NCBI GenBank assembly: GCA_902567855.1
Contig: CACFOQ010000002.1
Coordinates: forward strand, 15,163-79,162
Direction: 5' to 3'
Source of the DNA: an uncultured Alphaproteobacteria bacterium
Lineage (GTDB): Bacteria > Pseudomonadota > Alphaproteobacteria > HIMB59 > GCA-002718135
DNA length: 64,000 bases
Position 1 is the first letter of the stretch. Each line of letters begins with the position of its first letter. Shown piece by piece: positions 13,671 to 26,941 of this stretch. The position numbers and the translations under genes were made by a program. The notes under the pieces are model-generated. The model made no database searches. It saw only the letters and a list, made by a program, of their open reading frames with translations, and had not been told where the DNA came from.

Positions 13671-13731
13671 CGCTTGGAAAGCGTGTATAGTGGCAACACT
13701 ATCGAGGGTTCGAATCCCTCTCTCTCCGCCA
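13671..13731 (+). repeat. tRNA-Ser 3' fragment 2 (61 nt, anticodon stem to CCA; variable-arm allele A)
   Basis: Identical to 12249-12309. Preceded by the conserved ..tttaatcagca. No 5' acceptor or D arm. Confidence 0.95.
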
Positions 13732-13776
13732 TAAACTAGGATTTTTCTTTAACGATTTTTCAACAAAAATATGTTT

Positions 13777-13797
13777 CGGCGCACATACGGCGCACTT
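13777..13797 (+). repeat. Barcode 2L: cggcgcacat-a-cggcgcactt
   Basis: CACAT begins 51 nt after the fragment 2 CCA. Confidence 0.85.
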
Positions 13798-13914
13798 ACA
13801 CATTCTTTTTCATCTTTGAAAAGTATGTTATTTATATTTTCTTAATTGGTTTTTTTCGGGTGTCATTAATCGGGGATATAGATTAACTTAATCTTTAATT
13901 CAATCAATTACCTA

Positions 13915-13942
13915 TCAACATCCCTCGTGGTTGGTGGTAGGA
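13915..13942 (+). repeat. 28-nt direct repeat, copy 1 (tcaacatccctcgtggttggtggtagga)
   Basis: Second copy at 14138-14165 with 2 mismatches. The pair brackets the small ORF 13964..14122. Confidence 0.8.
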
Positions 13943-13963
13943 TGATTTTGAAAGTAAGAACTT

Positions 13964-14122
13964 ATGGATAATAAAATAATAGATAAATTTTTAAAATTCA
14001 TAGAAAAAGATGTAGTACCTCCTATAAAAAAAGATTTTACATGGCTGGCCAAGACTATAACTAAGGACTTGGAAAAACTTACAAAAGACAAAAAACAATC
14101 TAAAAAAAAGAATAAATCATAG
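13964..14122 (+). CDS. Small Lys-rich protein (52 aa), below the ORF-track cutoff; paralog of 32209..32391
   Basis: Hand translation: MDNKIIDKFLKFIEKDVVPPIKKDFTWLAKTITKDLEKLTKDKKQSKKKNKS. It aligns along its length with the 60-aa ORF at 32209 (PIKKDFTWL, DLEKLTK.KKQSKKK). Confidence 0.6.
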   Translation: MDNKIIDKFLKFIEKDVVPPIKKDFTWLAKTITKDLEKLTKDKKQSKKKNKS

Positions 14123-14137
14123 GAATAAATAATATCC

Positions 14138-14165
14138 TCAACATTTCTCGTGGTTGGTGGTAGGA
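14138..14165 (+). repeat. 28-nt direct repeat, copy 2 (tcaacatttctcgtggttggtggtagga)
   Basis: See 13915-13942. Confidence 0.8.
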
Positions 14166-14192
14166 GTTTTAAAATGAATCCTCTTGGAAGAA

Positions 14193-14939
14193 TCATTTTA
14201 TTTTTTTATTAAAAACCACAGGCATTTTACCTTTCCACTGGAACCACAGATTAGGTTGTTCAATGCACTCACACATAAAATGAGCGACGTTTGCTCGTGT
14301 AGTAGTAAGTCCATTAAAAATAGTTTGAGGAGGTGTCGCTACTACTTCATAGTTCGAAATTTCAGCATTAATGAGTCCGTCTGGTCGGACCACTACCCAT
14401 TCAATAAATTCATTTTCTGAACCAATGTTATCTCTCAAAAAAGCAGCGGAGGCTTCATTATCATAATGTGGTGGTATGAGGTTGCGTAACAGAGATAAAA
14501 TAACTTTTTCGCTCGTGGTTACTCTCTCACCAGGATTGCGATTACCTACGGTGTTCATTAATAAAAATTTTGTTTTATCTAGAGAATGAGTAGCTTTAAT
14601 AGCTACACATAGACGTTTGACTGCTTCCAGAACAAGCGTTCTGGGCTTGCCAAATATTCCTTTAAAACTCATTGTGTGACCTAAGCAGCAAGCCACAGCA
14701 GCACAACCTTTTACGGCTTCCAACATTTGTTCGTCACTCAGATCAAGCAAACTTGCTTTTATGATTTTAAGCTTTGGATTTTCAAGAAGTTCTTGTGGAA
14801 ATTTATCGAGTGACCGAACAATAATTCGAAGGCTATAGCCGCGGACAAGCAGCTGTTTTACAAGAGGGAAACCTGTATTTCCTGTAGCCCCGACCACTAA
14901 AACTGTTTTAGAATTTGAATTGGTTTTTTCGGATGTCAT
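14193..14939 (-). CDS. NAD(P)H-binding atypical SDR (NmrA / flavin-reductase-like)
   Basis: N-terminal VVGATGNTG Rossmann motif. 248 aa. Confidence 0.7.
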   Translation of the reverse strand: MTSEKTNSNSKTVLVVGATGNTGFPLVKQLLVRGYSLRIIVRSLDKFPQELLENPKLKIIKASLLDLSDEQMLEAVKGCAAVACCLGHTMSFKGIFGKPRTLVLEAVKRLCVAIKATHSLDKTKFLLMNTVGNRNPGERVTTSEKVILSLLRNLIPPHYDNEASAAFLRDNIGSENEFIEWVVVRPDGLINAEISNYEVVATPPQTIFNGLTTTRANVAHFMCECIEQPNLWFQWKGKMPVVFNKKIK

Positions 14940-14952
14940 TTATGGTTATCTT

Positions 14953-16275
14953 CTAGTTTTTAATTTTTTTTGCTGCTTTTGCATATTCTATATTTCTTCC
15001 GCCATAACGTCTTAGACGTATGTTGCATTGTTCGGCATGACCAAGAAAACCTTCTAAATATGAAAGTCTAGAGCCATACTCACCTATTAAGGTCGCAGCT
15101 TCATCTGTTAAAACTTTTTGATATGTGTGTGTTTTGATAAATTTACCCACCCATAATCCGCCAGTATAACGTCCGGCTTTTTTAGTAGGTAGGGTATGGT
15201 TTGTTCCAATCACTTTGTCACCATTTGCAACATTGGTTCTTGGGCCAAGAAATAATGCACCGTAAGATTTCATATTTTCCAAAAACCAATCATCTTTTTT
15301 TGTCATCACTTGCACATGTTCCGAGGCAATTTCATTTGCTTTATCAAGCATTTCTTCGTACGAATCACAAAGTATAACTGCACCGTAATCTCTCCAACTT
15401 ATACTTGCTGTTTCTTTAGTTGGTAAAATTTGAAGAATTCTTTCAATCTCTAATAGAGTAGACTCTGCTAAATTTTTTGAATTTGTAATTAGAACTGCGG
15501 GTGAATTATATCCATGTTCAGCTTGCCCTAAAAGATCAGTAGCACATAATTCTCCATCTACAGTATCATCTGCAATAACCATTGTTTCCGTTGGGCCAGC
15601 AAATAAATCAATCCCCACTTTTCCAAATAATTGTCTTTTAGCTTCAGCAACATAAGCGTTACCAGGACCAACAAGCATATCAACTGGTTTTATTGTTTCA
15701 GTTCCTATTGCCATTGCACCTATACCTTGCATACCACCTAATACATATATCTCATGGGCTCCACCTAAATGCATAGCCGCAATTACTGCTGGATTAGGTT
15801 TGCTTTGAAATGGAGATGTAGTAGCTACTATTCTAGGGACATCTGCAACAGATGCTGTTACTACAGACATGTGTGCGGATGCTACCATAGGAAATTTTCC
15901 TGCAGGAACATAACAGCCAACTGATTGTACTGGAATATTTTTGTGACCTAATATCACTCCAGGTAGTGTTTCAACTTCTAATTCCTTTAATGTTGCAAGT
16001 TGTGCTTCTGCAAATTGTCTTATTTGTTTTTGCGCAAATTTGATGTCCTCAATGTCATCTTCAGATACCTTACTAATTAAATTTTGAATCTCGGAATCTA
16101 TTAACCTAAAACTTGTTGGGGAATAATTATCAAATTTCTCTGACAATTCTCTAACATATTGGTCACCTTGTTGTTCTATTTTTTTTAATGTTTCTTCAAC
16201 AATGTTTTTAACTTTATCATTCTCAGCTGATCGTTCTTGTTCAGCAATTCCTTTTTTCAAATATTGAATAGTCAT
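14953..16275 (-). CDS. Histidinol-dehydrogenase-family (HisD-like) NAD-dependent alcohol/aldehyde dehydrogenase
   Basis: 440 aa. GQAEHG... and GPGNAYV motifs of the HisD family. The catabolic context argues against biosynthetic hisD. Confidence 0.7.
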   Translation of the reverse strand: MTIQYLKKGIAEQERSAENDKVKNIVEETLKKIEQQGDQYVRELSEKFDNYSPTSFRLIDSEIQNLISKVSEDDIEDIKFAQKQIRQFAEAQLATLKELEVETLPGVILGHKNIPVQSVGCYVPAGKFPMVASAHMSVVTASVADVPRIVATTSPFQSKPNPAVIAAMHLGGAHEIYVLGGMQGIGAMAIGTETIKPVDMLVGPGNAYVAEAKRQLFGKVGIDLFAGPTETMVIADDTVDGELCATDLLGQAEHGYNSPAVLITNSKNLAESTLLEIERILQILPTKETASISWRDYGAVILCDSYEEMLDKANEIASEHVQVMTKKDDWFLENMKSYGALFLGPRTNVANGDKVIGTNHTLPTKKAGRYTGGLWVGKFIKTHTYQKVLTDEAATLIGEYGSRLSYLEGFLGHAEQCNIRLRRYGGRNIEYAKAAKKIKN

Positions 16276-16278
16276 AAG

Positions 16279-17373
16279 TTATTTTTTATGTATTAAATCA
16301 AATATATCAACGTCTATCTGGTTAAGTATGTGTGCAATATCAATGGGCACCCAGTTTTCTCTTATTAATCCTTCGTGATGTAAATAAAAATCCATAACTC
16401 TCATTGTTACTGATTTGCCTGTGCCTTCATATCCAAGCCATTCTTTTGAACCATGCTTACACTCTATGCTGTGCCAACCTGATGTCATCGAAAAATTGCC
16501 ATCTGCAATTTCAATATAGTGTCCTATTTTCCAATAGTCTCTTTCCTTAAATGTTAGTCGAAATGGTAATTGATGATGATCAACATATCCTTTTAGCCCT
16601 CTTGCAGTACCTATACCGCTAGGACCATACCACATCATTTTAGGATGCCAGAAATCTTTTTGTGCATGATTTAATAATTTCTCTCTTATATATTCATAAT
16701 TAGATCCAGGATCAGTTTCAGGTTTGATGTTTAAACTTCTTTGCATTGTTAAAGCTTGCTCCATAGATTTAATTGATAATTCATTATCCATATTTTCAAA
16801 TGTTGTACCATCACCGGTTATTGGCCCTGGCCACATACCTTCCGCGCCTAGAGATTTATTTACTGGCCAAAATCCAGCCTGACGAATAAAATCTAAAGTA
16901 TCAATTAAAATGTGAGATTGAATAATTTTATTATCTTTGATTTCATGCGCTTCACATATTCTAAGATGAATTGTTTTGGCATGAGCAGGAACATTAAGCC
17001 ATGGATTTACAAAAGTCCCTGTTAAATGAGCTACTGTAGAAACAAAAATTTTATCTTGAAAAGATCCTCCAAGAATTAGATTATCCCTTCTTTCAAGATC
17101 AGGAAATGCATTTATAAGTGGTTTCCATAATTTTTCTGTTATTTCAGAAATTCCTTTTAAGTCATTAAGTGGATGGAATGCTCTTATTACCGCATCATCA
17201 TGATACGCATCACTAATATTTTTATTAATATTTTCTAAATTGGATTCAGCTATATTTTTTAGAAGAATTCTAATTTTTTTTTTATTTGCTAAATTTATCT
17301 TTGGATCTAAATTAATGACTTCAGTACTTCCCTCTTTTTTTATTCCAGTATTAAAATTTTCAATGTTTGTCAT
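16279..17373 (-). CDS. NTF2-like / SnoaL-like (ester-cyclase-like) two-domain protein; paralog of 24982..26055
   Basis: Shares PDLERRD, TGDG, WHP..WYGP.GIGT.RG, HQ.PF and LIRENWV..D blocks with 24982..26055. Confidence 0.5.
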   Translation of the reverse strand: MTNIENFNTGIKKEGSTEVINLDPKINLANKKKIRILLKNIAESNLENINKNISDAYHDDAVIRAFHPLNDLKGISEITEKLWKPLINAFPDLERRDNLILGGSFQDKIFVSTVAHLTGTFVNPWLNVPAHAKTIHLRICEAHEIKDNKIIQSHILIDTLDFIRQAGFWPVNKSLGAEGMWPGPITGDGTTFENMDNELSIKSMEQALTMQRSLNIKPETDPGSNYEYIREKLLNHAQKDFWHPKMMWYGPSGIGTARGLKGYVDHHQLPFRLTFKERDYWKIGHYIEIADGNFSMTSGWHSIECKHGSKEWLGYEGTGKSVTMRVMDFYLHHEGLIRENWVPIDIAHILNQIDVDIFDLIHKK

Positions 17374-17436
17374 AATTATTTAAATTTTAGTTACTCACAA
17401 TTAGGCAAATTTTAAATTGATTTATTCAATATTTTG

Positions 17437-17461
17437 AATATTATTCATTAAAAATGAATAA
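17437..17461 (+). promoter_or_regulatory. Candidate operator in a divergent promoter (aatattattcatta; palindrome ttattcat-taaaa-atgaataa)
   Basis: The 14-mer aatattattcatta recurs exactly at 21611-21624, upstream of the LacI-family gene and binding-protein gene. Confidence 0.3.
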
Positions 17462-17479
17462 AATATAATTTTTCCTAAA

Positions 17480-18448
17480 ATGTCAATAGATATAGAAAAA
17501 CGTCTAGCAAGATTTAATGATCTTATTCCCAGTAAGATCCCTTTTGTAGAAGGTAAGTTAAAAGGTCATCAGGATAGAAAAAATTATTCAATTGTCGGAC
17601 CAGGGGTAAGTGAAGATTCTAAGCAAAATGTAAAAATTGCTGAAGCTCACGGATTTAATATCGGGGCTGTAAGTGCTGCCCCAATGAATGGTTCAGGATT
17701 GCATAGTCATACAACTGCCGAGGTGTTTATTATACATGCTGGTTCATGGCGTTTTTATTGGGGAGTAAATGGCGAAGAGGGCGAAGTAATTCTTAGCAAA
17801 GGAGATGTAGCATCATTTCCTACTAATATGTTTAGAGGATTTCAAAATGTTAGTGATGAAGAAGCCCTTATGTTTGTTGCGCTAGGTGAAGATGATCCAG
17901 GTGTTATTACGTGGACTCCAAGATTATTGAAAGAAGCAAATGAATCAGGAATGTTATTAATGGAAGATCGTTCATTGGTTGATCTTAATAAGCAAAAAGT
18001 GCCTGAGGGTAAGTTAGTAACAAAACCTCTTGAAGATAAGGAACTGGAAAGCTTTGACCATTATACCTCAGATGAAATTGAGAAATTTGTTATTCGTTAT
18101 AATGATAATAAAAATTATGTTGATGATGAACATTATAATTCAAATTCAATAATTAATTATTTAGATTCATTTGAAATACATGGAAAAAAAATTGAACCTA
18201 AAATTCCTCACAAAACAGGCTTTGGATTGACTCTATTAAAAGGTGTTTCAGCCCATATGCATGCGTATTCTATTAATTCATCTGAAGTTTATAATTGTTT
18301 AAATGGCAAGTGGGAAGTCACATGTAATGATGAGAAAGTTATTCTCGAACCACGTGATAGTTTCTCTGCTCCAAAGAATTCTACAAGAAGTGTAAAACAG
18401 ATAAGCAATGATGAGGGTAGTTTATTTATCGTTAGGCAATCAAATTAA
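17480..18448 (+). CDS. Bicupin-domain protein
   Basis: Cupin motif GSGLHSHTTAEVFIIHAG in the N-terminal half and a second cupin-like half (GVSAHMHAY...). Confidence 0.65.
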   Translation: MSIDIEKRLARFNDLIPSKIPFVEGKLKGHQDRKNYSIVGPGVSEDSKQNVKIAEAHGFNIGAVSAAPMNGSGLHSHTTAEVFIIHAGSWRFYWGVNGEEGEVILSKGDVASFPTNMFRGFQNVSDEEALMFVALGEDDPGVITWTPRLLKEANESGMLLMEDRSLVDLNKQKVPEGKLVTKPLEDKELESFDHYTSDEIEKFVIRYNDNKNYVDDEHYNSNSIINYLDSFEIHGKKIEPKIPHKTGFGLTLLKGVSAHMHAYSINSSEVYNCLNGKWEVTCNDEKVILEPRDSFSAPKNSTRSVKQISNDEGSLFIVRQSN

Positions 18449-18460
18449 TTTATTAAAAAT

Positions 18461-19432
18461 ATGAAGGGTTTTGATAAAAAATTTAAAGATCTGCCTGATT
18501 ATATTCTTAAGATTACCTATCAGATTTGGGAGGATAAAGATGTTGAGTCAATTAGGGAGTATTATGCAAAGGGAATTCCGGTAAGATCTCCTGATGGAGT
18601 TATCTACGGACCTGATAAAGTAGTAAAAGCAACTTATGCTACGCTTGACGAATTTCCAGATCGGCAACTTCTTGGAGAGGATGTTATTTTTATAGGTAAT
18701 GAAAATGATGGTTATTTATCTTCGCATCGTATTTTAACAAAAGCGACTCATCTAAATGATGGAGTTTACGGAAAAGCCACAGGAATTAAAATATCTTACA
18801 GAGTTATAGCAGATTGTGCTTGTAAAAATAATCAAGTTTATGATGAATGGTTGGTTAGAGATCAGGGAGCAATAGTCAGACAGTTAAATTTAGATCCAAA
18901 AACCTATGCTAAAACATTAATTGATAAGCAAGGCGGTGTAACAAAATGCTCTATACCTTTTAATCAAAATACACCTCTAGATTTAAAATATACCCAGTTA
19001 AGTTTGCCTAAAAATAACACTGGTTATGAATATGCTGAAATATTAAAAACTATATTTCAAAAGGATTTGGATAGTATTGAAAAATTTTATGACAGATCTA
19101 TTAATCAAGAACAACCTAGTGGTCTTAAAGCGTATGGAGTAGACGAGGTTAAATCTTTTTGGTCATCAATTTTTTCTTCCTTTCCTGAAGCGACATTTAA
19201 AATTGAACATGTCAGTTATCTGGATGAGCCTGCAGCATATAGAAAAGCAGCGATAAGATGGTCTTTAAATGGTATCCACTCTGGTCCTGGGTATTTTGGC
19301 AATCCTAGTCAAACAAAAGTTTATGTAATGGGAATTTCTCATGCAGAATTTGGTCCCAGAGGTATAAAAAATGAGTGGGTTTTATTTGATGAAACTGCAA
19401 TATGGAAACAAATTTTAATGAAAACTGGTTAA
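18461..19432 (+). CDS. NTF2-like / SnoaL-like two-domain protein
   Basis: 323 aa. The YQIWEDKDVESIREYYA start and repeated halves resemble ester-cyclase-like proteins. Confidence 0.45.
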   Translation: MKGFDKKFKDLPDYILKITYQIWEDKDVESIREYYAKGIPVRSPDGVIYGPDKVVKATYATLDEFPDRQLLGEDVIFIGNENDGYLSSHRILTKATHLNDGVYGKATGIKISYRVIADCACKNNQVYDEWLVRDQGAIVRQLNLDPKTYAKTLIDKQGGVTKCSIPFNQNTPLDLKYTQLSLPKNNTGYEYAEILKTIFQKDLDSIEKFYDRSINQEQPSGLKAYGVDEVKSFWSSIFSSFPEATFKIEHVSYLDEPAAYRKAAIRWSLNGIHSGPGYFGNPSQTKVYVMGISHAEFGPRGIKNEWVLFDETAIWKQILMKTG

Positions 19433-19445
19433 GGATAGATAAACA

Positions 19446-20576: not shown

Positions 20577-20589
20577 ATTGTTAATTTTT

Positions 20590-21591
20590 TTATCTAGTTG
20601 TATTTCGATAAATAAATTTGCCCTGTATTACATGATTAACAGGCTCAAATTCTGGATCCTTTATATTATCATCTATAATTTGGGTAACAAGCTTTGACAT
20701 TTGTCTAATAGGTTGTCTAATTGTTGTTAAATTATATGAATACCAATTTGCTGTTGATATGTCATCATATCCAATTACCTCTATTTCTTTTGGGATATTT
20801 AATTTTGTATTTTCTTTAATATAATCAAGGCAACCAAAAGCCATAGTATCGTCAGCACAAAACAATGCTGTAATATTTTTTTTTAAAAGTTTTTTTGCTG
20901 ACTCGAAACCTCCTTCATATGTAAAATTTCCTTTTTCATGAAAAAATTTAATTTTGTTTAAATTTTTAAAATGGTTTTTAAAACCTTTACATCTTTCATT
21001 ACTTACAAAGGATCCAGTTGGTCCTTCAACCATTCCTATATTAATATGTCCATTGGTAATGAAATGTTCTGCCGCTGCTTCTCCCCCATATCTGTGATCA
21101 CAAGCTACAGAACTCAATGTGGGTATTTTCCAATTTCTATTAAAAGCGATAAGTTGAATTTGTTTGGATAAACAATTTTCTACAAATGCATCCGTAGGCT
21201 TTGTAGCCGAAACAATCGCAACTAATCTCTCTTTTAGGTAAGGTTGAATTAAGTTGTTATCAAGTTCTTCACCATCATCGGTTGTAATTAAAAGTATCCT
21301 GTACCCACTCATTCGAAGAGCCTCATGTAATTCAGTTAGGACTTCAGGATAATATCTATTGGTGATATAGGGTAATATTACGCCCACTAGCCCACCATCC
21401 ACTGATGAAGAAAAAGAATGCTGAATAGTTTGATGTTTATAGCCCAATTTTTTAGCAGCTTCGATGACGCGTAATTTTGTGCGATTTGAGATACTGGCTC
21501 CTTTGGTGAAGCACCGAGAGACTGCTGACTGGGATACACCAGCTAATGTGGCCACATTCTGGGATGTTGGATTCTTTAATTTAGTTTTCAT
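20590..21591 (-). CDS. LacI-family transcriptional regulator
   Basis: N-terminal HTH NVATLAGVSQSAVSRCF plus a periplasmic-binding-protein-like effector domain. Confidence 0.9.
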   Translation of the reverse strand: MKTKLKNPTSQNVATLAGVSQSAVSRCFTKGASISNRTKLRVIEAAKKLGYKHQTIQHSFSSSVDGGLVGVILPYITNRYYPEVLTELHEALRMSGYRILLITTDDGEELDNNLIQPYLKERLVAIVSATKPTDAFVENCLSKQIQLIAFNRNWKIPTLSSVACDHRYGGEAAAEHFITNGHINIGMVEGPTGSFVSNERCKGFKNHFKNLNKIKFFHEKGNFTYEGGFESAKKLLKKNITALFCADDTMAFGCLDYIKENTKLNIPKEIEVIGYDDISTANWYSYNLTTIRQPIRQMSKLVTQIIDDNIKDPEFEPVNHVIQGKFIYRNTTR

Positions 21592-21610
21592 TTATGCCTT
21601 TATCCACCGA

Positions 21611-21624
21611 AATATTATTCATTA
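21611..21624 (+). promoter_or_regulatory. Candidate operator (aatattattcatta) in the lacI / binding-protein intergenic region
   Basis: Exact 14-mer shared with 17437-17450. A nearby inverted repeat attgcat ... atgcaat lies at about 21625-21653. Confidence 0.3.
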
Positions 21625-21731
21625 CATTGCATATTTATTCAAAACAATGCAATATATTTATTATAAATATTTATAATATTAATTCTCTTAATATAACAAT
21701 TTATTTTAAGGGTAATTAATAAGGAGGAAAA

Positions 21732-22973
21732 ATGTTATTTAAAAAACTAATATTAGTTGGATTTATTTCCCTATTTTTCAGCTCATCTTTGTATGCAGCT
21801 GATTGTGGACCGAATGGGCAATCAATCCGAATTCTAGCAAGTGATTTTCCAGCAATTCACGCAATAGCAAATTCTGCTGAAAGTAATTGTGCAGGATCTG
21901 CTTCTGAATTCAATCGAAATCATACTACCGAAGCACGTCAAATAATGAATGCTGCTCAAACACCAAATCCAGCAGAGTATACTTCAGTTATTGTAGCTAA
22001 CTCTACCCTAGTTCAATTAATGAACGATGGACTTGTTAGACCATTAGATGATTTAGTTGAAAAATATGGTGGTCACTTAAAATCTAACCAACTGATAACT
22101 ATTGATGGAAAAATAATGGCAATAGCGTTTATGGCAAATTCTCAGCACATGTATTATAGAACAGATATTTTAGAAAAATCTGGGGTTGATGGAATACCAG
22201 CAACTTATGATGAAGTAATATCTGCTGCTGAAAAGATACGTGCAGCTGGTATCATGGAGCATCCACTTGTAATGAATCTCAAAGTCGGATGGAATGTTGG
22301 TGAAGTATTTAACACTATATACCTAGCACATGGTGGAGAATTCTTTAAGCCTGGTAGTGCTGAAGCATCTATTAATAATGCCAAAGGTGTTGCTGCTCTA
22401 GAAACAATGAAAGCTCTTGTAGAGTATGCTCACCCTGATCATTTAACGCAGGCATCTGATGATACGCAAGGATTATGGGAAGCTGGTCAAGCGGCAATTG
22501 GCTTTATGTGGGGTTCTCGTGGAGGAGTTATACTAGATAATGAAGGTTCTTCAGCTGAAGTGACTTCAAATACTGTTTTATCTGCAGCTCCAACTGTTAC
22601 TGGTGGCTCAATACCAGGAGCAACTCTATGGTGGGATGGAATAACTATAGCTACTAACGTGTCTGACAGTGAAGCAGAAGCAACGTTTGCAGCACTTGTA
22701 AGTGGTATGACTTCAGAAATGGTTGCTGCTAATAATGATGATGCAATTTGGTTAATTGATGGTTTTAAACCTGGTCCAGCTGCAGCAGGAGTTTCTGCAA
22801 CTGCTCAAGGCGGTGCTAAATCTTACCCGATGTTTGCTCAAATGGGATTATTGCACAATGCATTAGGTGCAGAGCTAGTTGATTTTTTAAAGGGATCTGA
22901 GAGCGCTGAACAAGCACTTAGTGATGTAGAGGCTGTTTACGAAACAGCTGCTAAAGACGCAGGTTATCTGTAG
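21732..22973 (+). CDS. ABC transporter extracellular solute-binding protein (family 1 / CUT1-like)
   Basis: Signal peptide, 413 aa, followed by MalF/MalG-type permeases. Confidence 0.75.
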   Translation: MLFKKLILVGFISLFFSSSLYAADCGPNGQSIRILASDFPAIHAIANSAESNCAGSASEFNRNHTTEARQIMNAAQTPNPAEYTSVIVANSTLVQLMNDGLVRPLDDLVEKYGGHLKSNQLITIDGKIMAIAFMANSQHMYYRTDILEKSGVDGIPATYDEVISAAEKIRAAGIMEHPLVMNLKVGWNVGEVFNTIYLAHGGEFFKPGSAEASINNAKGVAALETMKALVEYAHPDHLTQASDDTQGLWEAGQAAIGFMWGSRGGVILDNEGSSAEVTSNTVLSAAPTVTGGSIPGATLWWDGITIATNVSDSEAEATFAALVSGMTSEMVAANNDDAIWLIDGFKPGPAAAGVSATAQGGAKSYPMFAQMGLLHNALGAELVDFLKGSESAEQALSDVEAVYETAAKDAGYL

Positions 22974-22995
22974 TCAATATAAATAAATCAGTAAA

Positions 22996-23023
22996 AAGGG
23001 GTTTTCAAATTTGAAAACCCCTT
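22996..23023 (+). terminator. Perfect 14+14 palindrome after the binding-protein gene (attenuator or stabiliser hairpin)
   Basis: aaggggttttcaaa/tttgaaaacccctt. Only a weak T-tract follows. Confidence 0.45.
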
Positions 23024-23053
23024 GTATCTTTCTATGTAATTTAAAATCGCATA

Positions 23054-24088
23054 ATGAAGCACAGCACATTCTTATTATTTTCTCTTCCTTCATTAAGTGT
23101 AATGTTTTTATTTATTGCAATACCTATAGTTTCTGTTTTTATTCAATCTCTGCATATTGAGCATAAACAAGTAATAATTGTTACAGAAAATTGTGATCCT
23201 TTTGGATGTGAGACAACAACAGCTGTGGATACTGAAGCTTCCGCAAAGTTAAAAGAAAAAGCACCTCTTGGTAAATTTAATGGATTTAAAACATATTCAA
23301 ACAGAATGCATTTTGCATTTGATGAAGTAGGAGAAGCTTGGAAGAGCTCGGATAGTTTTACAGTTTTTACTAAAAAATTATATAATTACCCCCTATATAG
23401 AGCGCTCAGTTTCACTCTTACTTACACCTTCGTAGTTACTCCTTTTGTCTTATTTCTTGGTTTTTTAGTTGCCGTTGGAGTTAATAATCTTCCAAAGATG
23501 TTTAAAGGTCCAACAATTTTTGCATCTCTTCTTCCAATGATAGTTACACCTCTTGTTGGTTCATTGATACTTTTCTGGATGGTTGACGGTGATGGTGTGA
23601 TTGGGGCTACACTCCAAAAAATATTTAATGATAATTCTCTTAGCTTGAAAGCATCACCTGTGCTTACCTGGATTATGTTGATGGTATACGGTATTTGGCA
23701 TTTGATGCCTTTTAGTTTTATTGTTTTTTATGCAGGTCTTCAAACGGTTCCTCAAGAAACAATAGAGGCGGCAACAATAGATGGCGCATCAAAATTTCAA
23801 AGAATACGCCACGTTGTTATTCCTCATTTAATGCCACTTGCTATTTTCATCACTTTAATACTTTTGATGGATAATTTTAGAGTTTTTGAACCAATCATAG
23901 GTTTTAGAGCAGAAGCGCACGCCACCTCAATATCGTGGTTAATATGGAATCATTTGCGAGAAAGTGCTTACCCTCTCTATAACGCCGCAGGTGCTACATC
24001 TATGGTTACTATTTTTGGTGTAGCAATTTTACTCTTGCCCGTACTAATTCGAACATGGCGAGATTTTAAAGAAAAAAATAAAGGTTAG
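23054..24088 (+). CDS. ABC transporter permease (MalF-like)
   Basis: EAA loop EAATIDGASKFQRIRHVVIP. Large periplasmic loop after TM1. Confidence 0.85.
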   Translation: MKHSTFLLFSLPSLSVMFLFIAIPIVSVFIQSLHIEHKQVIIVTENCDPFGCETTTAVDTEASAKLKEKAPLGKFNGFKTYSNRMHFAFDEVGEAWKSSDSFTVFTKKLYNYPLYRALSFTLTYTFVVTPFVLFLGFLVAVGVNNLPKMFKGPTIFASLLPMIVTPLVGSLILFWMVDGDGVIGATLQKIFNDNSLSLKASPVLTWIMLMVYGIWHLMPFSFIVFYAGLQTVPQETIEAATIDGASKFQRIRHVVIPHLMPLAIFITLILLMDNFRVFEPIIGFRAEAHATSISWLIWNHLRESAYPLYNAAGATSMVTIFGVAILLLPVLIRTWRDFKEKNKG

Positions 24089-24094
24089 GAATTT

Positions 24095-24976
24095 GTGAAT
24101 ACAAAAATTGAAAATAAATTAACCCCAGTTCGTATTATTGCTTTTATATTTGTGGCTCTGTGGTTGGTTATTGCTATGTTTCCTTTTATTTGGACATTGT
24201 GGGGATCTTTCAAAGTACAAGCTGATTTTTTTTCAAAAGCTGATTGGTCAAATGCAATATTTGGCTTTCATACTGAAAAACAAACAGGCGGTTTTTTTAC
24301 TATGGATGGATATTATGGCTCTTGGATTGAAGAAGAATTTTGGCGTGCCGTTATTAATACAAGCATAGTAGTATTTTTTACAGTTTTAATTTCTCTTACT
24401 TTTGGAACTTTAGGTGGTTATGCTCTTGCAAGGTCTACTTATCGTTATGCCTTCTGGATTTTAATGGCAGGTCTGATCTTTCGTGCGATGCCTCATATGA
24501 CTTTGATTTCAGGATATCTTCAACCTTTTTTTGCATGGAATGTTTGGGGAATTTTGCCTACAACAATAATTGTGCTTGTTGCAATTAACCAACCTTTTAC
24601 TCTGTGGATGCTACATTCATTTTTTTTAAACATACCAAAAGATTTAGATGAAAGCGCTATGTGCGATGGTTGTAATAGATTTCAAGCATTTAGATATGTG
24701 ATCATTCCTATAATGTGGCCAGGGGTAATCACTACTGGATTATTTAGTTTCCTTCTTGCTTACAATGATTTTACAGTTACATCCATGTTGCTTTCAGATG
24801 AAAATGAAACAATGATTCCAGCAATTGCAAGTTTTCTAGGTACTGTCCAAGAAGAAGGTAAAGTAATGTATGCTGTAGCAGCCGTTGTTTCAGCAACTGC
24901 TCCATTATTCTTTTTTGTACTGTTTTTTCAAAGACAGATTGTTAGTGGATTAACAGCTGGAGCAGTAAAAGGTTAA
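24095..24976 (+). CDS. ABC transporter permease (MalG-like)
   Basis: EAA loop ESAMCDGCNRFQAFRYVIIP. GTG start. Confidence 0.85.
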   Translation: MNTKIENKLTPVRIIAFIFVALWLVIAMFPFIWTLWGSFKVQADFFSKADWSNAIFGFHTEKQTGGFFTMDGYYGSWIEEEFWRAVINTSIVVFFTVLISLTFGTLGGYALARSTYRYAFWILMAGLIFRAMPHMTLISGYLQPFFAWNVWGILPTTIIVLVAINQPFTLWMLHSFFLNIPKDLDESAMCDGCNRFQAFRYVIIPIMWPGVITTGLFSFLLAYNDFTVTSMLLSDENETMIPAIASFLGTVQEEGKVMYAVAAVVSATAPLFFFVLFFQRQIVSGLTAGAVKG

Positions 24977-24981
24977 AAGTA

Positions 24982-26055
24982 ATGAAATCAGAGCAATTAA
25001 AAAAATACTTTGAAGATTATCAAATAGCTACTCAAAATTTTAATAAAAATTCAATAAATAATTCTCTAACTAAATACTTCTCAGAACATTCTGTGTTTCA
25101 ATTCTGTTATCCCTTTGGAACGTTTAATGGATTAGATAATTTTTTATCTAATTGTATCAATCCTCTTTTAGAAAGTATTCCAGATCTTGAAAGAAGAGAT
25201 ATGATTGTTATGGCAGGCACAACACCTGAAGATAAACACTGGGTAGGTACTATGGGTAATTATATGGGAACATTTTTAAAATCATTTTTAGATATTCCAC
25301 CAACTGGTAATTTAGTTCATATGCGTTATCATGAGTTTTTCCAAATTGAAAATAATCAGATTATAGAAATGCAATCAATATGGGATCTACCTGAACTGAT
25401 GATCCAGGCCAATGCATGGCCAATGAGTCCTCAGCTAGGATCTTTTTTATGTACACCATCTCCGATGACCGGAGACGGTTTAAAAATAAAAGGCGATGGA
25501 TCAAAAAATTTTGATCTTGTGATTAATATGCTTCAAGACATGGTTTTACACCCTAGTAATCCAGATCCACAAGTTATGAATTTAGATAAGTATTGGCACC
25601 CCAGATTTAATTGGTATGGACCAGCTGGAATTGGAACTGGAAGAGGTATAGCAGGATTTCGCCATTGGCATCAAATACCCTTCTTACGTGCAATGCCGGA
25701 TAGAAAGGGAGGTTCATCAAATGATAGCTTAAAAAATGAGGGATTGAAGGATATGCTAACTCATTGGATATATGAAGGAGATTATGTCTGTGAAACTGGT
25801 TGGCCAAATATGCGATCTACAATATCACAAGATGGATGGATGGGTATTGCTCCTTCAAACCAGATTATAGAAATGCGGAGTTTAGATTTTTGGAGAGTTG
25901 AAAATAATCTTATAAGGGAGAATTGGGTTTTAGTAGATCTTCTGGATGTTTATCAGCAAATAGGCGTTAATGTTTTTGATAGAATAAAAGAATTTAACAA
26001 AGCAAGAAATGTTGGTGATATTAACATTTCTCAAGGACTTGATTTAATTAAATAA
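24982..26055 (+). CDS. NTF2-like / SnoaL-like two-domain protein; paralog of 16279..17373
   Basis: Block-wise similarity to 16279..17373, as listed for that feature. Confidence 0.5.
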   Translation: MKSEQLKKYFEDYQIATQNFNKNSINNSLTKYFSEHSVFQFCYPFGTFNGLDNFLSNCINPLLESIPDLERRDMIVMAGTTPEDKHWVGTMGNYMGTFLKSFLDIPPTGNLVHMRYHEFFQIENNQIIEMQSIWDLPELMIQANAWPMSPQLGSFLCTPSPMTGDGLKIKGDGSKNFDLVINMLQDMVLHPSNPDPQVMNLDKYWHPRFNWYGPAGIGTGRGIAGFRHWHQIPFLRAMPDRKGGSSNDSLKNEGLKDMLTHWIYEGDYVCETGWPNMRSTISQDGWMGIAPSNQIIEMRSLDFWRVENNLIRENWVLVDLLDVYQQIGVNVFDRIKEFNKARNVGDINISQGLDLIK

Positions 26056-26072
26056 ATATTGATATAGAAGAA

Positions 26073-26840
26073 ATGTATTTACAAAAATTTGAAGTCAAAA
26101 ACAAAACTGCATTAGTAACGGGAGCAGGAAAAGGTTTGGGAAAAGCATGTGCTATTGCTTTGGCTGAGGCAGGAGCCAATCTCATTATATTAAGTCGTAC
26201 CAAAACTGACTTAACAAAAGTTGAAAAACAAATAATAAAATTAAATAGAAAATGTCGATCAATCGTATGTGATGTAACAAATTATGAAGATGTAAAAAAA
26301 ACTTTTTCCTCCATATCTAAGTTAGATATTCTTGTTAATAATGCTGGAACTAATAGACCTGAATATTTTACAAAAATTAAAAAAAAAGATATGGATGATG
26401 TTGTTGATTTGAATATTAAAGCCGCATTTCATATTGCACAATTGGCTTCAAAAATAATGCTAAGATCCAAAAATCGAAAGAAAGTTGGGGCTTCCATAAT
26501 AAATATGTCTTCTCAATTAGGAAAAGTAGGAGCTCCACGCCGAAGTGTTTACAATATGACGAAATTTGGAATTGAAGGATTAACCAAAGGAATGGCTGTG
26601 GATTTAGCTAAACATAATATTCGTGTCAATTCAGTTTGTCCCACATTTGTTAAAACGCCAATGGTTGAAAAGTTTTTTAAAGATAAAGAATTTATGAAAT
26701 CTGTATTAAAAAACATTCCTTTAGGCAGAATAGGTTCAGAAAGCGATATTGCTACAGCTGTAGTGTATCTAGCCTCCAATGCATCATCAATGATTACTGG
26801 CTCATCATTAGTAATAGATGGTGGTTGGACAGCAAAATAA
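26073..26840 (+). CDS. Short-chain dehydrogenase/reductase (classical SDR)
   Basis: TGAGKGLG cofactor motif, NNAG, catalytic YNMTK. Confidence 0.9.
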   Translation: MYLQKFEVKNKTALVTGAGKGLGKACAIALAEAGANLIILSRTKTDLTKVEKQIIKLNRKCRSIVCDVTNYEDVKKTFSSISKLDILVNNAGTNRPEYFTKIKKKDMDDVVDLNIKAAFHIAQLASKIMLRSKNRKKVGASIINMSSQLGKVGAPRRSVYNMTKFGIEGLTKGMAVDLAKHNIRVNSVCPTFVKTPMVEKFFKDKEFMKSVLKNIPLGRIGSESDIATAVVYLASNASSMITGSSLVIDGGWTAK

Positions 26841-26851
26841 TTAAAATTTCT

Positions 26852-26872
26852 CGGCGCACATACGGCGCACTT
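26852..26872 (+). repeat. Barcode 2R: cggcgcacat-a-cggcgcactt
   Basis: Identical to 2L. CACAT begins 85 nt before the fragment 3 core. Starts 12 nt after the SDR stop. Confidence 0.85.
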
Positions 26873-26941
26873 AGACACCCGGTATTTACATTTTCACGTT
26901 TAATTTTTCCTAGAAACCTTACACTTTGTTTTTAATCAGCA

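What the first reader, a model, noticed from the sequence alone, without database searches (positions are those of the whole stretch)
13732..26941. Cassette 2 is a self-contained 13-kb catabolic island of unclear substrate: LacI regulator, a CUT1-type ABC importer without its ATPase, three NTF2/SnoaL-like paralogs, HisD-like, MetE-like, bicupin, two reductases
Seen in the sequence: the genes run 14193-26840. They encode an NmrA-like reductase, a HisD-family dehydrogenase, a SnoaL-like two-domain protein, a bicupin, a second SnoaL-like protein, a MetE-C-terminal-like Zn enzyme, and a LacI regulator. They continue with a binding protein, two permeases, a third SnoaL-like protein (a clear paralog of the first) and an SDR. 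No ABC ATPase is present, so import would depend on a chromosomal ATPase. A shared ATPase is known for CUT1 systems, but it is notable for a mobile unit. By eye this block is more GC-rich than the DNA at 9-12 kb or 32-41 kb (not computed). The combination does not match a pathway I can name. HisD-family enzymes outside histidine synthesis include sulfopropanediol dehydrogenase (HpsN), so an organosulfonate or polyol substrate is one hypothesis among several.
Basis: partly seen in the sequence, partly recalled or inferred. Interest (0 to 1): 0.6.

Follow-up and report, generated by a model that had tools for sequence, protein, structure and literature searches.

The report
Mobile SAR11 catabolic cassette, unknown substrate
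A 13-kb gene block in SAR11, the ocean's most abundant bacterium, encodes uptake and breakdown of a still-unidentified small molecule; it sits as a movable cassette beside a tRNA gene, and many other marine bacteria share the gene set, so it probably marks an unrecognised, widely used marine nutrient.

Summary
Twelve intact genes lie at 14193-26840 with the stated families. No ABC ATPase gene is in the block, and GC is 33.6% against 24% in the flanks and 27.6% in the core.

The host is SAR11 (Pelagibacteraceae). The block is one cassette in a tandem array at tRNA-Ser(GGA). It is bounded by 3' fragments of that tRNA plus a cassette-specific tandem-heptamer pair inside each end. Related genomes hold it at different array positions, and three independent assemblies show a head-to-tail junction.

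The same gene set is syntenic in many Rhodobacteraceae, Hyphomicrobiales and Gammaproteobacteria (permease 73-81% and dehydrogenase 71-76% identical). There a MalK/UgpC-type ATPase gene usually precedes the binding-protein gene. SAR11 copies never have it.

The HisD-like enzyme is closest to the DHPS dehydrogenase HpsN (44-46% identity) and databases label it so. However, the sulfonate-binding motif G-R-Y-A/S-H is invariantly G-K-F-P-M.

Chromosomal SAR11 copies lie between cysNC-cysD-cysQ-xsc and pta-tpa-ald. That hints at an organosulfonate, but only by association.

No curated family, solved structure or paper I found names the pathway. The verdict is an uncharacterised, widespread pathway on a non-autonomous mobile cassette, substrate unresolved.

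The parts
12220..12309 (+). Intact tRNA-Ser(GGA), the anchor of the cassette array.
   Evidence: ARAGORN and Rfam.
13661..13731 (+). Partial copy of the tRNA-Ser 3' portion (anticodon arm to CCA-proximal end). It forms the left boundary of cassette 2.
   Evidence: Repeat family D2, 95% identical to its reference copy; alignment A1.
13778..13795 (+). Tandem heptamer pair GGCGCAC-ATAC-GGCGCAC just inside the left end. It is a candidate recombinase or accessory-protein binding site.
   Evidence: The identical 18-mer recurs just inside the right end. Every cassette in the array has its own matching pair. Ten such sites lie at array boundaries on the + strand, with one loose match elsewhere (59109). 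Mononucleotide shuffles give a mean of 1.4 raw matches on both strands.
13871..14917 (.). Indel segment carrying a 52-aa ORF and the NmrA-like gene. It is a variable accessory part of the cassette.
   Evidence: Absent in L015, L016, L001, L003 and L005. Present in L004 and L206-L211.
13964..14122 (+). Small lysine-rich ORF (52 aa), a paralog of a 60-aa ORF at 32209-32391 next to mutT.
   Evidence: Repeat D3 (76% nucleotide identity) and the translations.
14193..14939 (-). NmrA-like / NAD_binding_10 atypical SDR.
   Evidence: Pfam PF13460, E 1e-22. No counterpart in the non-SAR11 clusters.
14953..16275 (-). HisD-family Zn/NAD+ four-electron alcohol dehydrogenase. It is a sister group of HpsN with motif G-K-F-P-M.
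   Evidence: PF00815, 435 bits. 44-46% identical to CpHpsN and RpHpsN. The Zn ligands and catalytic Glu-His pair are conserved.
16279..17373 (-). Two-domain SnoaL/NTF2-like protein 1.
   Evidence: Pfam SnoaL twice. Paralog of protein 3.
17441..17461 (.). Palindrome TTATTCATT-AAA-AATGAATAA in the divergent promoter region. It is a candidate LacI operator.
   Evidence: It is the only site in the window (it matches on both strands; 0.1 matches expected). The same position is kept in several SAR11 variants (L001-L008, L010-L013, L015, L016, L018, L029, L094), but there is no exact match in the L019-L028 group.
17480..18448 (+). Bicupin. The N-terminal barrel keeps H75-x-H77-x3-E81 and has Arg119 where the usual fourth-ligand His would be.
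   Evidence: Pfam Cupin_2 twice. The invariant residues come from alignment A2. Foldseek gives only generic bicupin matches.
18461..19432 (+). Two-domain SnoaL/NTF2-like protein 2, a distinct subfamily.
   Evidence: Pfam. No significant similarity to proteins 1 or 3.
19446..20576 (+). MetE C-terminal-domain-like Zn enzyme (376 aa) without the folate-binding N-terminal domain.
   Evidence: PF01717, E 1.5e-16. His244-x-Cys246, Glu278 and Cys342 are invariant in 51 orthologues.
20590..21591 (-). LacI-family repressor.
   Evidence: Pfam LacI plus Peripla_BP; RbsR-like, 181 bits, below the curated cut-off.
21732..22973 (+). Periplasmic solute-binding protein of a CUT1-type ABC importer, with a signal peptide.
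   Evidence: SBP_bac_1. The best solved relatives are NagB2, MalE3 and SmoF, all weak at E 1e-13 to 1e-9.
22996..23023 (+). Perfect 14+14-nt hairpin followed by a T-rich run, between the binding-protein gene and the first permease gene. It is a likely partial terminator or mRNA stabiliser.
23054..24088 (+). ABC permease 1.
   Evidence: BPD_transp_1. 60-73% identical to non-SAR11 orthologues.
24095..24976 (+). ABC permease 2.
   Evidence: BPD_transp_1. 73-81% identical to orthologues in Alpha- and Gammaproteobacteria.
24982..26055 (+). Two-domain SnoaL/NTF2-like protein 3. This type stays with the transporter in nearly all loci, including the minimal ones.
   Evidence: Pfam. Co-occurrence across loci.
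26073..26840 (+). Classical SDR of the sugar / sugar-acid dehydrogenase type.
   Evidence: adh_short_C2. It passes the NCBIfam glucose 1-dehydrogenase subfamily cut-off (218 against 215 bits). PDB neighbours are KduD and gluconate 5-dehydrogenase.
26853..26870 (+). Second copy of GGCGCAC-ATAC-GGCGCAC, just inside the right end.
26932..27002 (+). Next tRNA-Ser 3' fragment, the right boundary of cassette 2.

Best explanation
Cassette 2 is a non-autonomous mobile cassette in a tRNA-Ser 'additive' genomic island of a SAR11 (Pelagibacteraceae) genome. It carries a LacI-repressed regulon for high-affinity uptake and breakdown of one small hydrophilic metabolite.

Shown by the data. The unit has exact borders at tRNA-Ser 3' fragments. 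It has matching tandem-heptamer sites inside both ends. It occupies different array positions in related genomes, and head-to-tail junctions occur. No integrase gene is in the window. The gene set is an ancient, horizontally shared operon-like cluster found across marine Proteobacteria.

Inferred. A site-specific recombinase encoded elsewhere moves the cassette through the tRNA-derived core. The binding protein and two permeases work with a MalK/UgpC-type ATPase borrowed from another CUT1 system. The transporter-linked SnoaL protein acts first on the imported compound. The SDR, bicupin, further SnoaL proteins and MetE-like Zn enzyme remodel it. The HisD-like enzyme then oxidises a terminal CH2OH (or aldehyde) next to a hydroxyl or amino group to a carboxylate.

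My best guess for the substrate class, at roughly 40%, is an organosulfonate or similar anionic hydroxy compound that is not plain DHPS. Its products would feed the Xsc/Pta sulfoacetaldehyde route.
For: Mobility. There is one intact tRNA-Ser plus five 3' fragments, and each cassette has its own heptamer pair at both ends. Cassette 2 lies next to the intact tRNA in L209, L005 and L210, is second in the window, and follows a MORN-protein cassette in L015. Contigs from three assemblies join the SDR end, through one fragment, to the HisD or NmrA end (L003, L207, L211). Partial tRNA repeats have been reported to mark cassette insertion in SAR11 islands (PMC11796062).

Host. The proteins are 99-100% identical to SAR11 single-cell genomes, and the exact HisD-like protein occurs in 64 metagenome blocks including GOS and BATS.

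Conserved pathway. Synteny holds across about 60 non-SAR11 loci. 141 of 376 MetE-like residues are invariant, including the Zn ligands. The HisD-like catalytic residues are invariant.

Regulon. A LacI gene and a conserved palindrome sit in divergent promoter regions.

ATPase in trans. No ATPase is in the cassette or in any SAR11 copy, whereas a UgpC/MalK-type gene (449 bits, above cut-off) accompanies the roseobacter clusters.

Sulfonate lean. The nearest solved enzymes are HpsN. Lys353, which contacts the sulfonate in HpsN and is Tyr in the true HisD aligned here (L055), is kept. In at least 11 SAR11 single-cell genomes from GTDB-representative and NCBI sets, the cluster lies between cysNC-cysD-cysQ-xsc (Xsc 944 bits) and pta-tpa-ald. 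Three SAR11 variants (L018, L021, L029) carry at that position a paralog 55% identical to HpsN.
Against: The HpsN-defining sulfonate-binding histidine is methionine.

No desulfonating enzyme (SuyAB, CuyA, Xsc, SmoC-type) is in the cassette or in any non-SAR11 version.

The xsc/pta adjacency is seen only in SAR11 and could simply mark an insertion hot spot.

The binding protein, LacI and SDR look like ordinary sugar-system parts.

Known SAR11 DHPS uptake uses a TRAP protein, SAR11_0864 (PMC13335735).

No integrase was found, and no relative of the cassette turned up in IMG/VR viral contigs.

Head-to-tail contigs could be tandem copies or assembly effects at a repeat.

The presence of a MalK-type ATPase elsewhere in the host genome was not checked.
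Confidence: 0.45

Rival explanations
1. The cassette degrades a neutral sugar, deoxy-sugar, polyol or cyclitol by a non-phosphorylative oxidative route. In that route the SDR oxidises the sugar, a lactonase, dehydratase and aldolase follow, and the HisD-like enzyme oxidises the leftover hydroxy-aldehyde or diol. No sulfur is involved.
For: The regulator is a LacI/RbsR-like repressor and the importer is CUT1-type. The binding protein's best solved relatives bind sugars. The SDR passes the glucose 1-dehydrogenase subfamily cut-off and resembles KduD and gluconate 5-dehydrogenase. Roseobacter versions add a fuconolactonase-like Amidohydro_2 and an RraA-like aldolase, and an IolB gene lies nearby in L068. 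Methionine in place of the sulfonate-binding histidine would suit an uncharged group.
Against: No kinase and no dehydratase of a known family is present. The MetE-like Zn enzyme and the SnoaL proteins have no role in known sugar routes. Lys353 is retained. The SAR11 cassette itself lacks the lactonase and the aldolase.
Confidence: 0.25
2. It is simply a DHPS or cysteinolate utilisation island. On this view the HisD-like enzyme is a functional HpsN, as the databases say.
For: The closest solved structures are HpsN. JGI and MAG annotations read 'sulfopropanediol 3-dehydrogenase'. HisD-family enzymes are promiscuous toward DHPS, and a Bilophila HpsN oxidises L-cysteinolate (PMC11131964, PMC12814064).
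Against: The motif G-R-Y-A/S-H is replaced by an invariant G-K-F-P-M. Identity to characterised HpsN is only 44-46%, whereas the HTCC1002 enzyme assayed on DHPS is listed at about 57%. No hpsO, hpsP, suyAB or cuyA genes are present. SAR11 DHPS uptake is by a TRAP system. Ten other conserved genes would be left unexplained.
Confidence: 0.1
3. It degrades an aromatic or heteroaromatic compound. The bicupin would be the ring-cleaving dioxygenase. The hydrolase and RraA-like aldolase would act on the ring-fission product, and the HisD-like enzyme would oxidise a hydroxymethyl side chain.
For: Foldseek's top hits are salicylate/gentisate 1,2-dioxygenases and quercetinases. In other lineages there is a PcaD-like alpha/beta hydrolase, an RraA-like protein (RraA-like proteins include HMG/CHA aldolases, from general knowledge) and an Amidohydro_2.
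Against: The structural model was poor (pLDDT 61.7, TM about 0.4), so the matches show the fold only. The metal site is H-x-H-x3-E with Arg, not the three- or four-His site of those dioxygenases. A CUT1 importer with a LacI regulator is unusual for aromatics. The SAR11 cassette lacks the hydrolase and the aldolase.
Confidence: 0.08
4. It processes a methylated onium or thioether compound. The MetE-like enzyme would move a methyl group to homocysteine or another thiol, and the HisD-like or GMC enzyme would oxidise a choline-like alcohol.
For: The MetE-like Zn-thiolate site is intact. GMC oxidoreductase, GFA, GST and glyoxalase genes appear in some variants, and a GMC gene is present in the Thioglobus locus L090 where no HisD-like gene lies within range.
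Against: Onium compounds are normally taken up by ProU/BCCT-type systems rather than CUT1 (general knowledge). No folate- or corrinoid-binding partner is encoded. The accessory genes are sporadic.
Confidence: 0.07

Closest known systems
HpsN (R-DHPS / sulfopropanediol 3-dehydrogenase; PDB 8V35, 8WWE) and the hpsRNOUP-suyAB and hpsKLM DHPS systems
   Same: The fold is the HisD fold. The Zn ligands (Gln, His, Asp, His') and the catalytic Glu-His pair are conserved, as is the Lys next to the Zn-binding Asp. Bit scores are 371 and 347 against the solved HpsN structures.
   Different: Identity is only 44-46%. The HpsN signature G-R-Y-A/S-H, whose His126 hydrogen-bonds the sulfonate, is G-K-F-P-M here. 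The closest relatives carry G-K-Y-P-L/M. There are no hpsO, hpsP, suyAB or TRAP genes. The enzyme sits in a different, larger gene set.
CUT1 (MalFGK2/UgpBAEC-type) ABC importers served by a shared ATPase, such as Streptomyces MsiK (from general knowledge)
   Same: There is an SBP_bac_1 binding protein plus two BPD_transp_1 permeases. The orthologous clusters use a UgpC/MalK-type ATPase with a TOBE domain.
   Different: The ATPase gene is missing from every SAR11 copy and from some Paracoccaceae loci. The partner ATPase in SAR11 has not been identified.
Additive flexible genomic islands at tRNA genes (Alteromonas, Methylophilaceae, SAR11 GI-20/30/50/58) and Prochlorococcus tycheposons
   Same: Recurring direct repeats of the tRNA 3' end delimit cassettes, and the cargo is metabolic and transport genes in a streamlined marine genome (PMC11796062, PMC10872708).
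   Different: No tyrosine recombinase lies next to the tRNA, so the tycheposon hallmark is not met in this window. The repeats are long (about 62-71 nt). Each cassette also carries its own tandem-heptamer pair inside both ends, a feature I did not find described in the papers I read.
Integron gene cassettes
   Same: Both are arrays of discrete, non-autonomous cassettes whose order differs between strains. The recombinase is not in the cassette.
   Different: The recombination site derives from a tRNA rather than being attC/attI. The cassettes are large, carry their own regulator and promoters, and are not promoterless single genes. No IntI gene is nearby.
Cobalamin-independent methionine synthase MetE and short 'core' MetE-like proteins (PDB 1YPX, 3RPD)
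   Same: The C-terminal catalytic barrel is present with His-x-Cys, Glu and Cys Zn ligands, together with the N-terminal HVGSLPR and QID-x-P-x-LA segments. Their resemblance to MetE substrate-binding motifs is from my reading of the sequence.
   Different: There is no Meth_synt_1 folate-binding domain. All NCBIfam methionine-synthase scores are far below cut-off (102 against 406 bits at best). The gene is always linked to the bicupin and to a SnoaL gene.

Membership tests
HpsN (DHPS 3-dehydrogenase) | HisD fold with Zn ligands Gln248, His251, Asp352 and His411', and catalytic Glu318 and His319. | tested here: met
   GQAEHG, SEH, GDK and GHA are all conserved in 50+ orthologues. Residue roles are taken from PMC11382572.
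HpsN (DHPS 3-dehydrogenase) | Signature G-R-Y-A/S-H, with His126 binding the sulfonate. | tested here: not met
   G-K-F-P-M in the window protein and in all cluster-linked orthologues except the five loci that carry a different paralog. Solved CpHpsN has GRYAH and RpHpsN has GRYSH.
HpsN (DHPS 3-dehydrogenase) | Lys353 contacting the sulfonate. | tested here: met
   GDKVIGTNH is present. The true HisD in L055 has GDY at this position.
HpsN (DHPS 3-dehydrogenase) | Gene neighbourhood with hpsO/hpsP, suyAB or slcD, or a DHPS transporter. | tested here: not met
   None is present in the cassette or in about 90 related loci.
HpsN (DHPS 3-dehydrogenase) | NAD+-dependent oxidation of R-DHPS to R-sulfolactate. 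| not testable with these tools
   This needs an enzyme assay.
CUT1 ABC importer | Cluster-D binding protein (SBP_bac_1) plus two MalF/MalG-type permeases. | tested here: met
   Pfam hits.
CUT1 ABC importer | Dedicated MalK/UgpC-type ATPase gene in the operon. | tested here: not met
   Absent from the cassette, from the whole 64-kb window and from all SAR11 loci. Present in 36 non-SAR11 loci.
LacI-family regulon | HTH_LacI plus a periplasmic-binding-protein-like sensor domain. | tested here: met
   PF00356 and PF13377.
LacI-family regulon | Palindromic operator in the controlled promoters. | tested here: inconclusive
   The palindrome at 17441-17461 is unique in the window and is positionally conserved in several SAR11 variants, though there is no exact match in L019-L028. 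Only a degenerate copy lies in the LacI/binding-protein intergenic region. Binding was not tested.
tRNA-associated additive genomic island | Recurring direct repeats of the tRNA 3' end delimiting cassettes. | tested here: met
   Five fragments follow the intact tRNA-Ser.
tRNA-associated additive genomic island | Cassette presence, order or position varies among close relatives. | tested here: met
   L015, L016, L209, L005 and the window differ.
Tycheposon | Tyrosine (or large serine) recombinase hallmark gene beside the tRNA. | tested here: not met
   ORFs at 9238-11998 and those in cassettes 1-5 have no recombinase domain.
Tycheposon | Excised circular form, or packaging in vesicles or virus particles. 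| tested here: inconclusive
   Three head-to-tail junction contigs exist. No relative was found in IMG/VR.
MetE (cobalamin-independent methionine synthase) | Zn site His-x-Cys, Glu, Cys in the catalytic barrel. | tested here: met
   H244, C246, E278 and C342 are invariant.
MetE (cobalamin-independent methionine synthase) | N-terminal Meth_synt_1 domain binding methyl-tetrahydrofolate polyglutamate. | tested here: not met
   The protein is 376 aa and matches PF01717 only. All NCBIfam equivalog scores are below cut-off.
Gentisate/salicylate 1,2-dioxygenase-type bicupin | Bicupin fold. | tested here: met
   Pfam Cupin_2 twice; Foldseek E 1e-10.
Gentisate/salicylate 1,2-dioxygenase-type bicupin | Three-His Fe(II) site (from general knowledge). 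| tested here: not met
   The N-terminal barrel has H75, H77 and E81, with Arg119 at the position of the last His. The C-terminal barrel lacks a canonical site.

The most novel reading that the evidence does not exclude
The cassette encodes a wholly new catabolic route for an abundant but so far unrecognised open-ocean metabolite, possibly a sulfonate made by picocyanobacteria or picoeukaryotes. The route would be built from enzyme types not yet used in any known pathway: tandem NTF2/SnoaL proteins, a folate-domain-less MetE-like Zn enzyme, an Arg-bearing bicupin and a non-HpsN HisD relative.

It would spread among SAR11 cells as part of a previously undescribed tRNA-targeted cassette system. 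In that system each cassette carries its own pair of tandem-heptamer sites and relies on a recombinase encoded elsewhere, making it an integron-like gene-shuffling mechanism for streamlined genomes.
Probability: 0.25. Interest if true: 0.85.

Novelty: new variant of a known kind. Interest (0 to 1): 0.62.

Why it matters
SAR11 cells carry few genes, so a 12-gene accessory block that recurs in GOS, BATS and Tara samples is likely to pay its way. The block is also conserved at 71-81% protein identity (dehydrogenase and second permease) in Roseobacters and Gammaproteobacteria.

Finding its substrate would add a new link between phytoplankton and bacteria in the marine carbon cycle, and perhaps the sulfur cycle.

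There is also a practical consequence. Public pipelines label the dehydrogenase 'sulfopropanediol 3-dehydrogenase' although it lacks the sulfonate-binding histidine. Meta-omic estimates of SAR11 DHPS use may therefore be counting a different enzyme.

Cultured carriers exist (Shimia sp. MIT1388 and MIT910701, Ruegeria sp. KLH11, Antarctobacter jejuensis, Mameliella sediminis), so the question is directly testable.

Finally, the cassette architecture offers a handle on how genomes without obvious mobile elements exchange whole pathways.

Tried and rejected
- Curated families. NCBIfam and Pfam give only superfamily-level hits for the bicupin, the three SnoaL proteins, the MetE-like enzyme and the binding protein.
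- PDB sequence searches. Nothing better than E 0.016 for the SnoaL proteins or 0.18 for the bicupin. The MetE-like enzyme hits only structural-genomics entries.
- Structure prediction of the bicupin from 21 close homologues gave a poor model (pLDDT 61.7). Foldseek returned generic bicupins at TM about 0.4, so I use it for fold only.
- Literature. Eight full-text searches, with combinations such as SnoaL / histidinol dehydrogenase / cupin / ABC / marine, hpsN + SAR11, and sulfoquinovose + SAR11, found no description of this cluster. The SAR11 binding-protein survey covers two other strains and does not include this protein. A 13C-sulfoquinovose SIP study and a 2026 review do not implicate SAR11 in sulfoquinovose use. 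I therefore dropped sulfoquinovose as a named candidate.
- Viral collection. There are no relatives of the dehydrogenase. The 110 hits to the tRNA-Ser 28-mer are generic tRNA or prophage matches without the SAR11-specific flanks.
- Minimal loci in Thioalkalivibrio, Ruegeria conchae and Paracoccaceae MAGs, examined for clues to the substrate, have only housekeeping or unrelated neighbours.
- Accessory genes in other lineages (GMC oxidoreductase, amidase, GST, GFA, glyoxalase) are sporadic and point in different directions.
- The sigma-70 promoter scan gave fewer sites than the shuffles and was ignored.
- I first took L015 (AG-426-I04) for the source genome. It is not, because it lacks the NmrA indel.

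Full report
**What is in the sequence**

Pfam and NCBIfam confirm the families:
- an NmrA/NAD_binding_10 protein;
- a histidinol-dehydrogenase-family protein (435 bits);
- three proteins each built of two SnoaL/NTF2 domains;
- a bicupin;
- a 376-aa protein matching only the catalytic domain of cobalamin-independent methionine synthase;
- a LacI repressor;
- an SBP_bac_1 binding protein with a signal peptide;
- two BPD_transp_1 permeases;
- a classical SDR.

A MalK/UgpC-type ATPase used as a tblastn probe finds nothing in the block. Elsewhere in the 64-kb window it finds only CUT2-type or other ABC ATPases. No riboswitch or other Rfam family lies in the block.

GC is 33.6% for 13732-26941. That compares with 29.7% for the window, 24.1% for each neighbouring segment and 27.6% for the core to the right. 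The block is the GC maximum of all 13.2-kb windows, and third-position GC is also higher, about 0.20 against about 0.14.

SnoaL proteins 1 and 3 are deep paralogs (28% identity, E 2e-54). The second is a separate subfamily.

**Host and setting**

The window is about 30% GC. All twelve proteins are 97-100% identical to those of uncultured Pelagibacteraceae single-cell genomes. The exact dehydrogenase sequence occurs in 64 blocks of the metagenome collection, including GOS, BATS and Tara samples.

An intact tRNA-Ser(GGA) lies at 12220-12309. Five copies of its 3' portion, from the anticodon arm to the 3' end, follow at 13661, 26932, 27432, 29376 and 30854.

This is the layout called an additive flexible genomic island. 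Partial tRNA repeats marking cassette insertion have been reported for four SAR11 islands, in genomes where almost no integrases are found (PMC11796062; PMC10872708).

**Evidence that cassette 2 moves as a unit**

Mapping related contigs onto the window shows the same block in different places:
- directly next to the intact tRNA (L209, L005, L210);
- in second place (the window);
- after a MORN-protein cassette (L015).

Three contigs from three different assemblies (L003, L207, L211) join the SDR end, through a single tRNA fragment, to the HisD or NmrA end. That is what a circle or a tandem duplicate would give. Assembly through a repeat could mimic it, so I treat it as suggestive.

Each cassette also carries a tandem heptamer pair about 45 nt inside its left end and about 60 nt inside its right end. 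The pair is identical at both ends of a cassette but differs between cassettes. The forms are GGTTGCAC, GGCGCAC (cassette 2, at 13778-13795 and 26853-26870), GGTCTCAC and GGCACAC. A scan for such tandem pairs finds ten at array boundaries on the + strand and one loose match elsewhere (59109). Mononucleotide shuffles average 1.4 raw matches on both strands.

No recombinase domain is found in the ORFs around the tRNA or in the neighbouring cassettes. The cassette is therefore non-autonomous.

The viral-contig collection holds no relative of it.

The NmrA gene and a 52-aa ORF lie in a 1047-bp indel (13871-14917) that many otherwise identical copies lack. The small ORF has a paralog next to mutT at the right edge of the island. 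This points to recombination between versions from different genomic contexts.

**The gene set is old and widely shared**

A scan of one genome per species with the second permease returned 80 loci. tblastn of all cassette proteins against them gave the following.
- The binding protein, both permeases, the HisD-like enzyme, SnoaL proteins, SDR, LacI, bicupin and MetE-like enzyme are syntenic in many Rhodobacteraceae. Examples are Ruegeria sp. KLH11, Shimia sp. MIT1388 and MIT910701, Antarctobacter, Mameliella, Tropicibacter and Cognatishimia.
- The same synteny holds in Roseibium and other Hyphomicrobiales.
- Subsets occur in Gammaproteobacteria, including Thioalkalivibrio and Thioglobus.
- Identities to the SAR11 proteins are 73-81% for permease 2, 71-76% for the dehydrogenase and about 50% for the MetE-like enzyme and the SnoaL proteins.

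Such values between classes point to horizontal spread of the whole cluster.

In 36 non-SAR11 loci a UgpC/MalK-type ATPase gene (449 bits, above the curated cut-off) accompanies the cluster, in 32 of them directly upstream of the binding-protein gene. In no SAR11 locus is there one. Some Paracoccaceae minimal loci also lack it.

Other lineages add further genes:
- a single-domain SnoaL protein;
- a fuconolactonase-like Amidohydro_2;
- a PcaD-like alpha/beta hydrolase;
- an RraA-like protein;
- sporadically a GMC oxidoreductase, an amidase placed between the binding-protein and permease genes, GST, GFA and glyoxalase genes.

The near-irreducible unit is the transporter plus the SnoaL-3 type protein. 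This suggests that protein acts first on the imported compound.

**The dehydrogenase**

Against solved structures it scores 371 and 347 bits with the two HpsN (DHPS 3-dehydrogenase) structures and at most 261 bits with histidinol dehydrogenases. JGI and MAG annotations call it sulfopropanediol 3-dehydrogenase.

The structural study of CpHpsN defines the family by the motif G-R-Y-A/S-H. Its last histidine first ligates Zn and then hydrogen-bonds the sulfonate, and HisD has G-S-A-P-L there (PMC11382572). In the window protein, and in every cluster-linked orthologue from SAR11 to Shimia, the motif is G-K-F-P-M. The Zn ligands, the Glu-His catalytic pair and Lys353 are all kept.

Identity to characterised HpsN is 44-46%. 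An exhaustive search of 50%-identity representatives shows the nearest full-length neighbours (48-49%) carry G-K-Y-P-L or G-K-Y-P-M. The G-R-Y/F-x-H proteins come next at 42-46%.

So it is an active four-electron alcohol dehydrogenase of a sister group, not a demonstrated HpsN. The SAR11 enzyme shown to oxidise R-DHPS is listed at about 57% identity to Ruegeria HpsN. The relation of that enzyme to the present family is untested (PMC11131964). SAR11 takes up DHPS through a TRAP protein (PMC13335735).

**Other enzymes**

The MetE-like protein keeps His244-x-Cys246, Glu278 and Cys342. In total 141 of its 376 residues are invariant across 51 orthologues. It lacks the folate-binding domain and scores far below every methionine-synthase cut-off. 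That fits a Zn-dependent alkyl transfer to a thiol or a similar nucleophile, but the substrates are unknown.

The bicupin keeps H-x-H-x3-E in its first barrel, with an invariant Arg where the last His usually sits. Its predicted structure was poor and only confirms the fold.

The SDR resembles sugar and sugar-acid dehydrogenases.

A palindrome, TTATTCATT-AAA-AATGAATAA, lies in the divergent promoter region at 17441-17461. It is unique in the window, and its position is conserved in several SAR11 variants, though not as an exact match in the L019-L028 group. This makes it a good LacI operator candidate.

A perfect 14+14 hairpin after the binding-protein gene is typical of operons that over-express the binding protein.

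**Clues to the substrate**

In SAR11 genomes where the cluster is not at tRNA-Ser, it lies in one chromosomal site. On the dehydrogenase side are cysNC, cysD, cysQ, a Na/Ca exchanger and xsc (sulfoacetaldehyde acetyltransferase, 944 bits, above cut-off). On the SDR side are an EamA transporter, pta, a class-III aminotransferase and alanine dehydrogenase. That is the classical taurine / sulfoacetaldehyde set.

In three variants (L018, L021, L029) a paralog 55% identical to HpsN replaces the G-K-F-P-M enzyme at the same position.

These facts, together with the retained Lys353, lean toward an anionic substrate, probably a sulfonate, that is not plain DHPS.

Against this:
- the adjacency is confined to SAR11;
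- no desulfonating enzyme is in any version of the cluster;
- the transporter, regulator and SDR look like sugar-system parts.

I put the organosulfonate reading at about 40% and a neutral sugar, polyol or cyclitol at about 25%. Plain DHPS or cysteinolate use, aromatic ring cleavage and onium-compound demethylation are each 10% or less.

**Verdict**

The finding is real and more interesting than a one-off island. It is a widely conserved, uncharacterised catabolic gene set, captured as a non-autonomous cassette in a SAR11 tRNA-Ser array. It has been stripped of its ATPase gene, and the databases name it for a function its key residue does not support.

The island type and the enzyme superfamilies are known. 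The pathway, its substrate and the heptamer-marked cassette ends are not.

Noticed in passing
window 12136-12153, 12354-12373, 13580-13599, 13778-13795, 26853-26870, 27048-27066, 27352-27371, 29493-29511, 30775-30793: Every cassette of the tRNA-Ser array is bracketed internally by its own matching pair of tandem heptamers of the form GGNNNCAC-N3-4-GGNNNCAC. A similar pair (TGATCAC) lies upstream of the intact tRNA. The sequence differs between cassettes but co-varies between the two ends of each cassette.
   Followed up: partly
L010-L013, L094 (11320-17592) and L020-L023, L027, L028 (3-584): These SAR11 single-cell genomes carry cysNC, cysD and cysQ (sulfate activation to PAPS) next to xsc. 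SAR11 is generally described as lacking assimilatory sulfate reduction genes (general knowledge). What PAPS is used for here is unclear.
   Followed up: no
window 13964-14122 and 32209-32391: Two paralogous small lysine-rich ORFs (52 and 60 aa, sharing KKDFTWL...DLEKLTK). One is inside the variable left end of cassette 2, the other beside mutT at the island's right edge. The first is flanked by 28-nt direct repeats (13915-13942 and 14138-14165) that weakly resemble the 3' end of the SDR gene.
   Followed up: partly
window 1425-9188: A second, comparably GC-rich (34.2%) sugar-acid block lies left of the tRNA. It has an apionate-lactonase-like protein, a Gfo/Idh/MocA oxidoreductase, an HpaI/GarL-type aldolase and a complete CUT2 ABC system. 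In L209 and L005 cassette 2 and the tRNA lie directly after this block's permease gene, so 9189-12219 is itself variable.
   Followed up: partly
window 27618-29288, 29572-30768, 31389-32180: The neighbouring cassettes carry a MORN-repeat protein, a caspase-like protein with an Agenet/Tudor-like C-terminus, and a PhyH-family dioxygenase. These are unusual cargo for a streamlined genome.
   Followed up: no
L017 (JAPNQO010000048.1): A 4.4-kb contig binned as a Candidatus Neomarinimicrobiota MAG is 99% identical to the SAR11 cassette (permeases, SnoaL-3, SDR, tRNA fragment). It is probably a mis-binned SAR11 contig.
   Followed up: no
L095 and L009: Further SAR11 mosaics of the cluster exist. L095 lacks LacI, has an RraA-like gene and a longer second permease, and is flanked by nitroreductase, flavodoxin-like, GFA and glyoxalase genes. 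L009 joins the dehydrogenase to the nitroreductase and flavodoxin genes and then to a tRNA-Ser fragment.
   Followed up: partly
L060, L068, L080, L085: In four non-SAR11 loci an amidase-family gene is present. In three of them (L068, L080, L085) it sits between a divergent (48-49% identical) binding-protein gene and the first permease gene. In L060 it lies downstream of the cluster on the opposite strand. This suggests that some relatives import an amide-linked form of the substrate.
   Followed up: no
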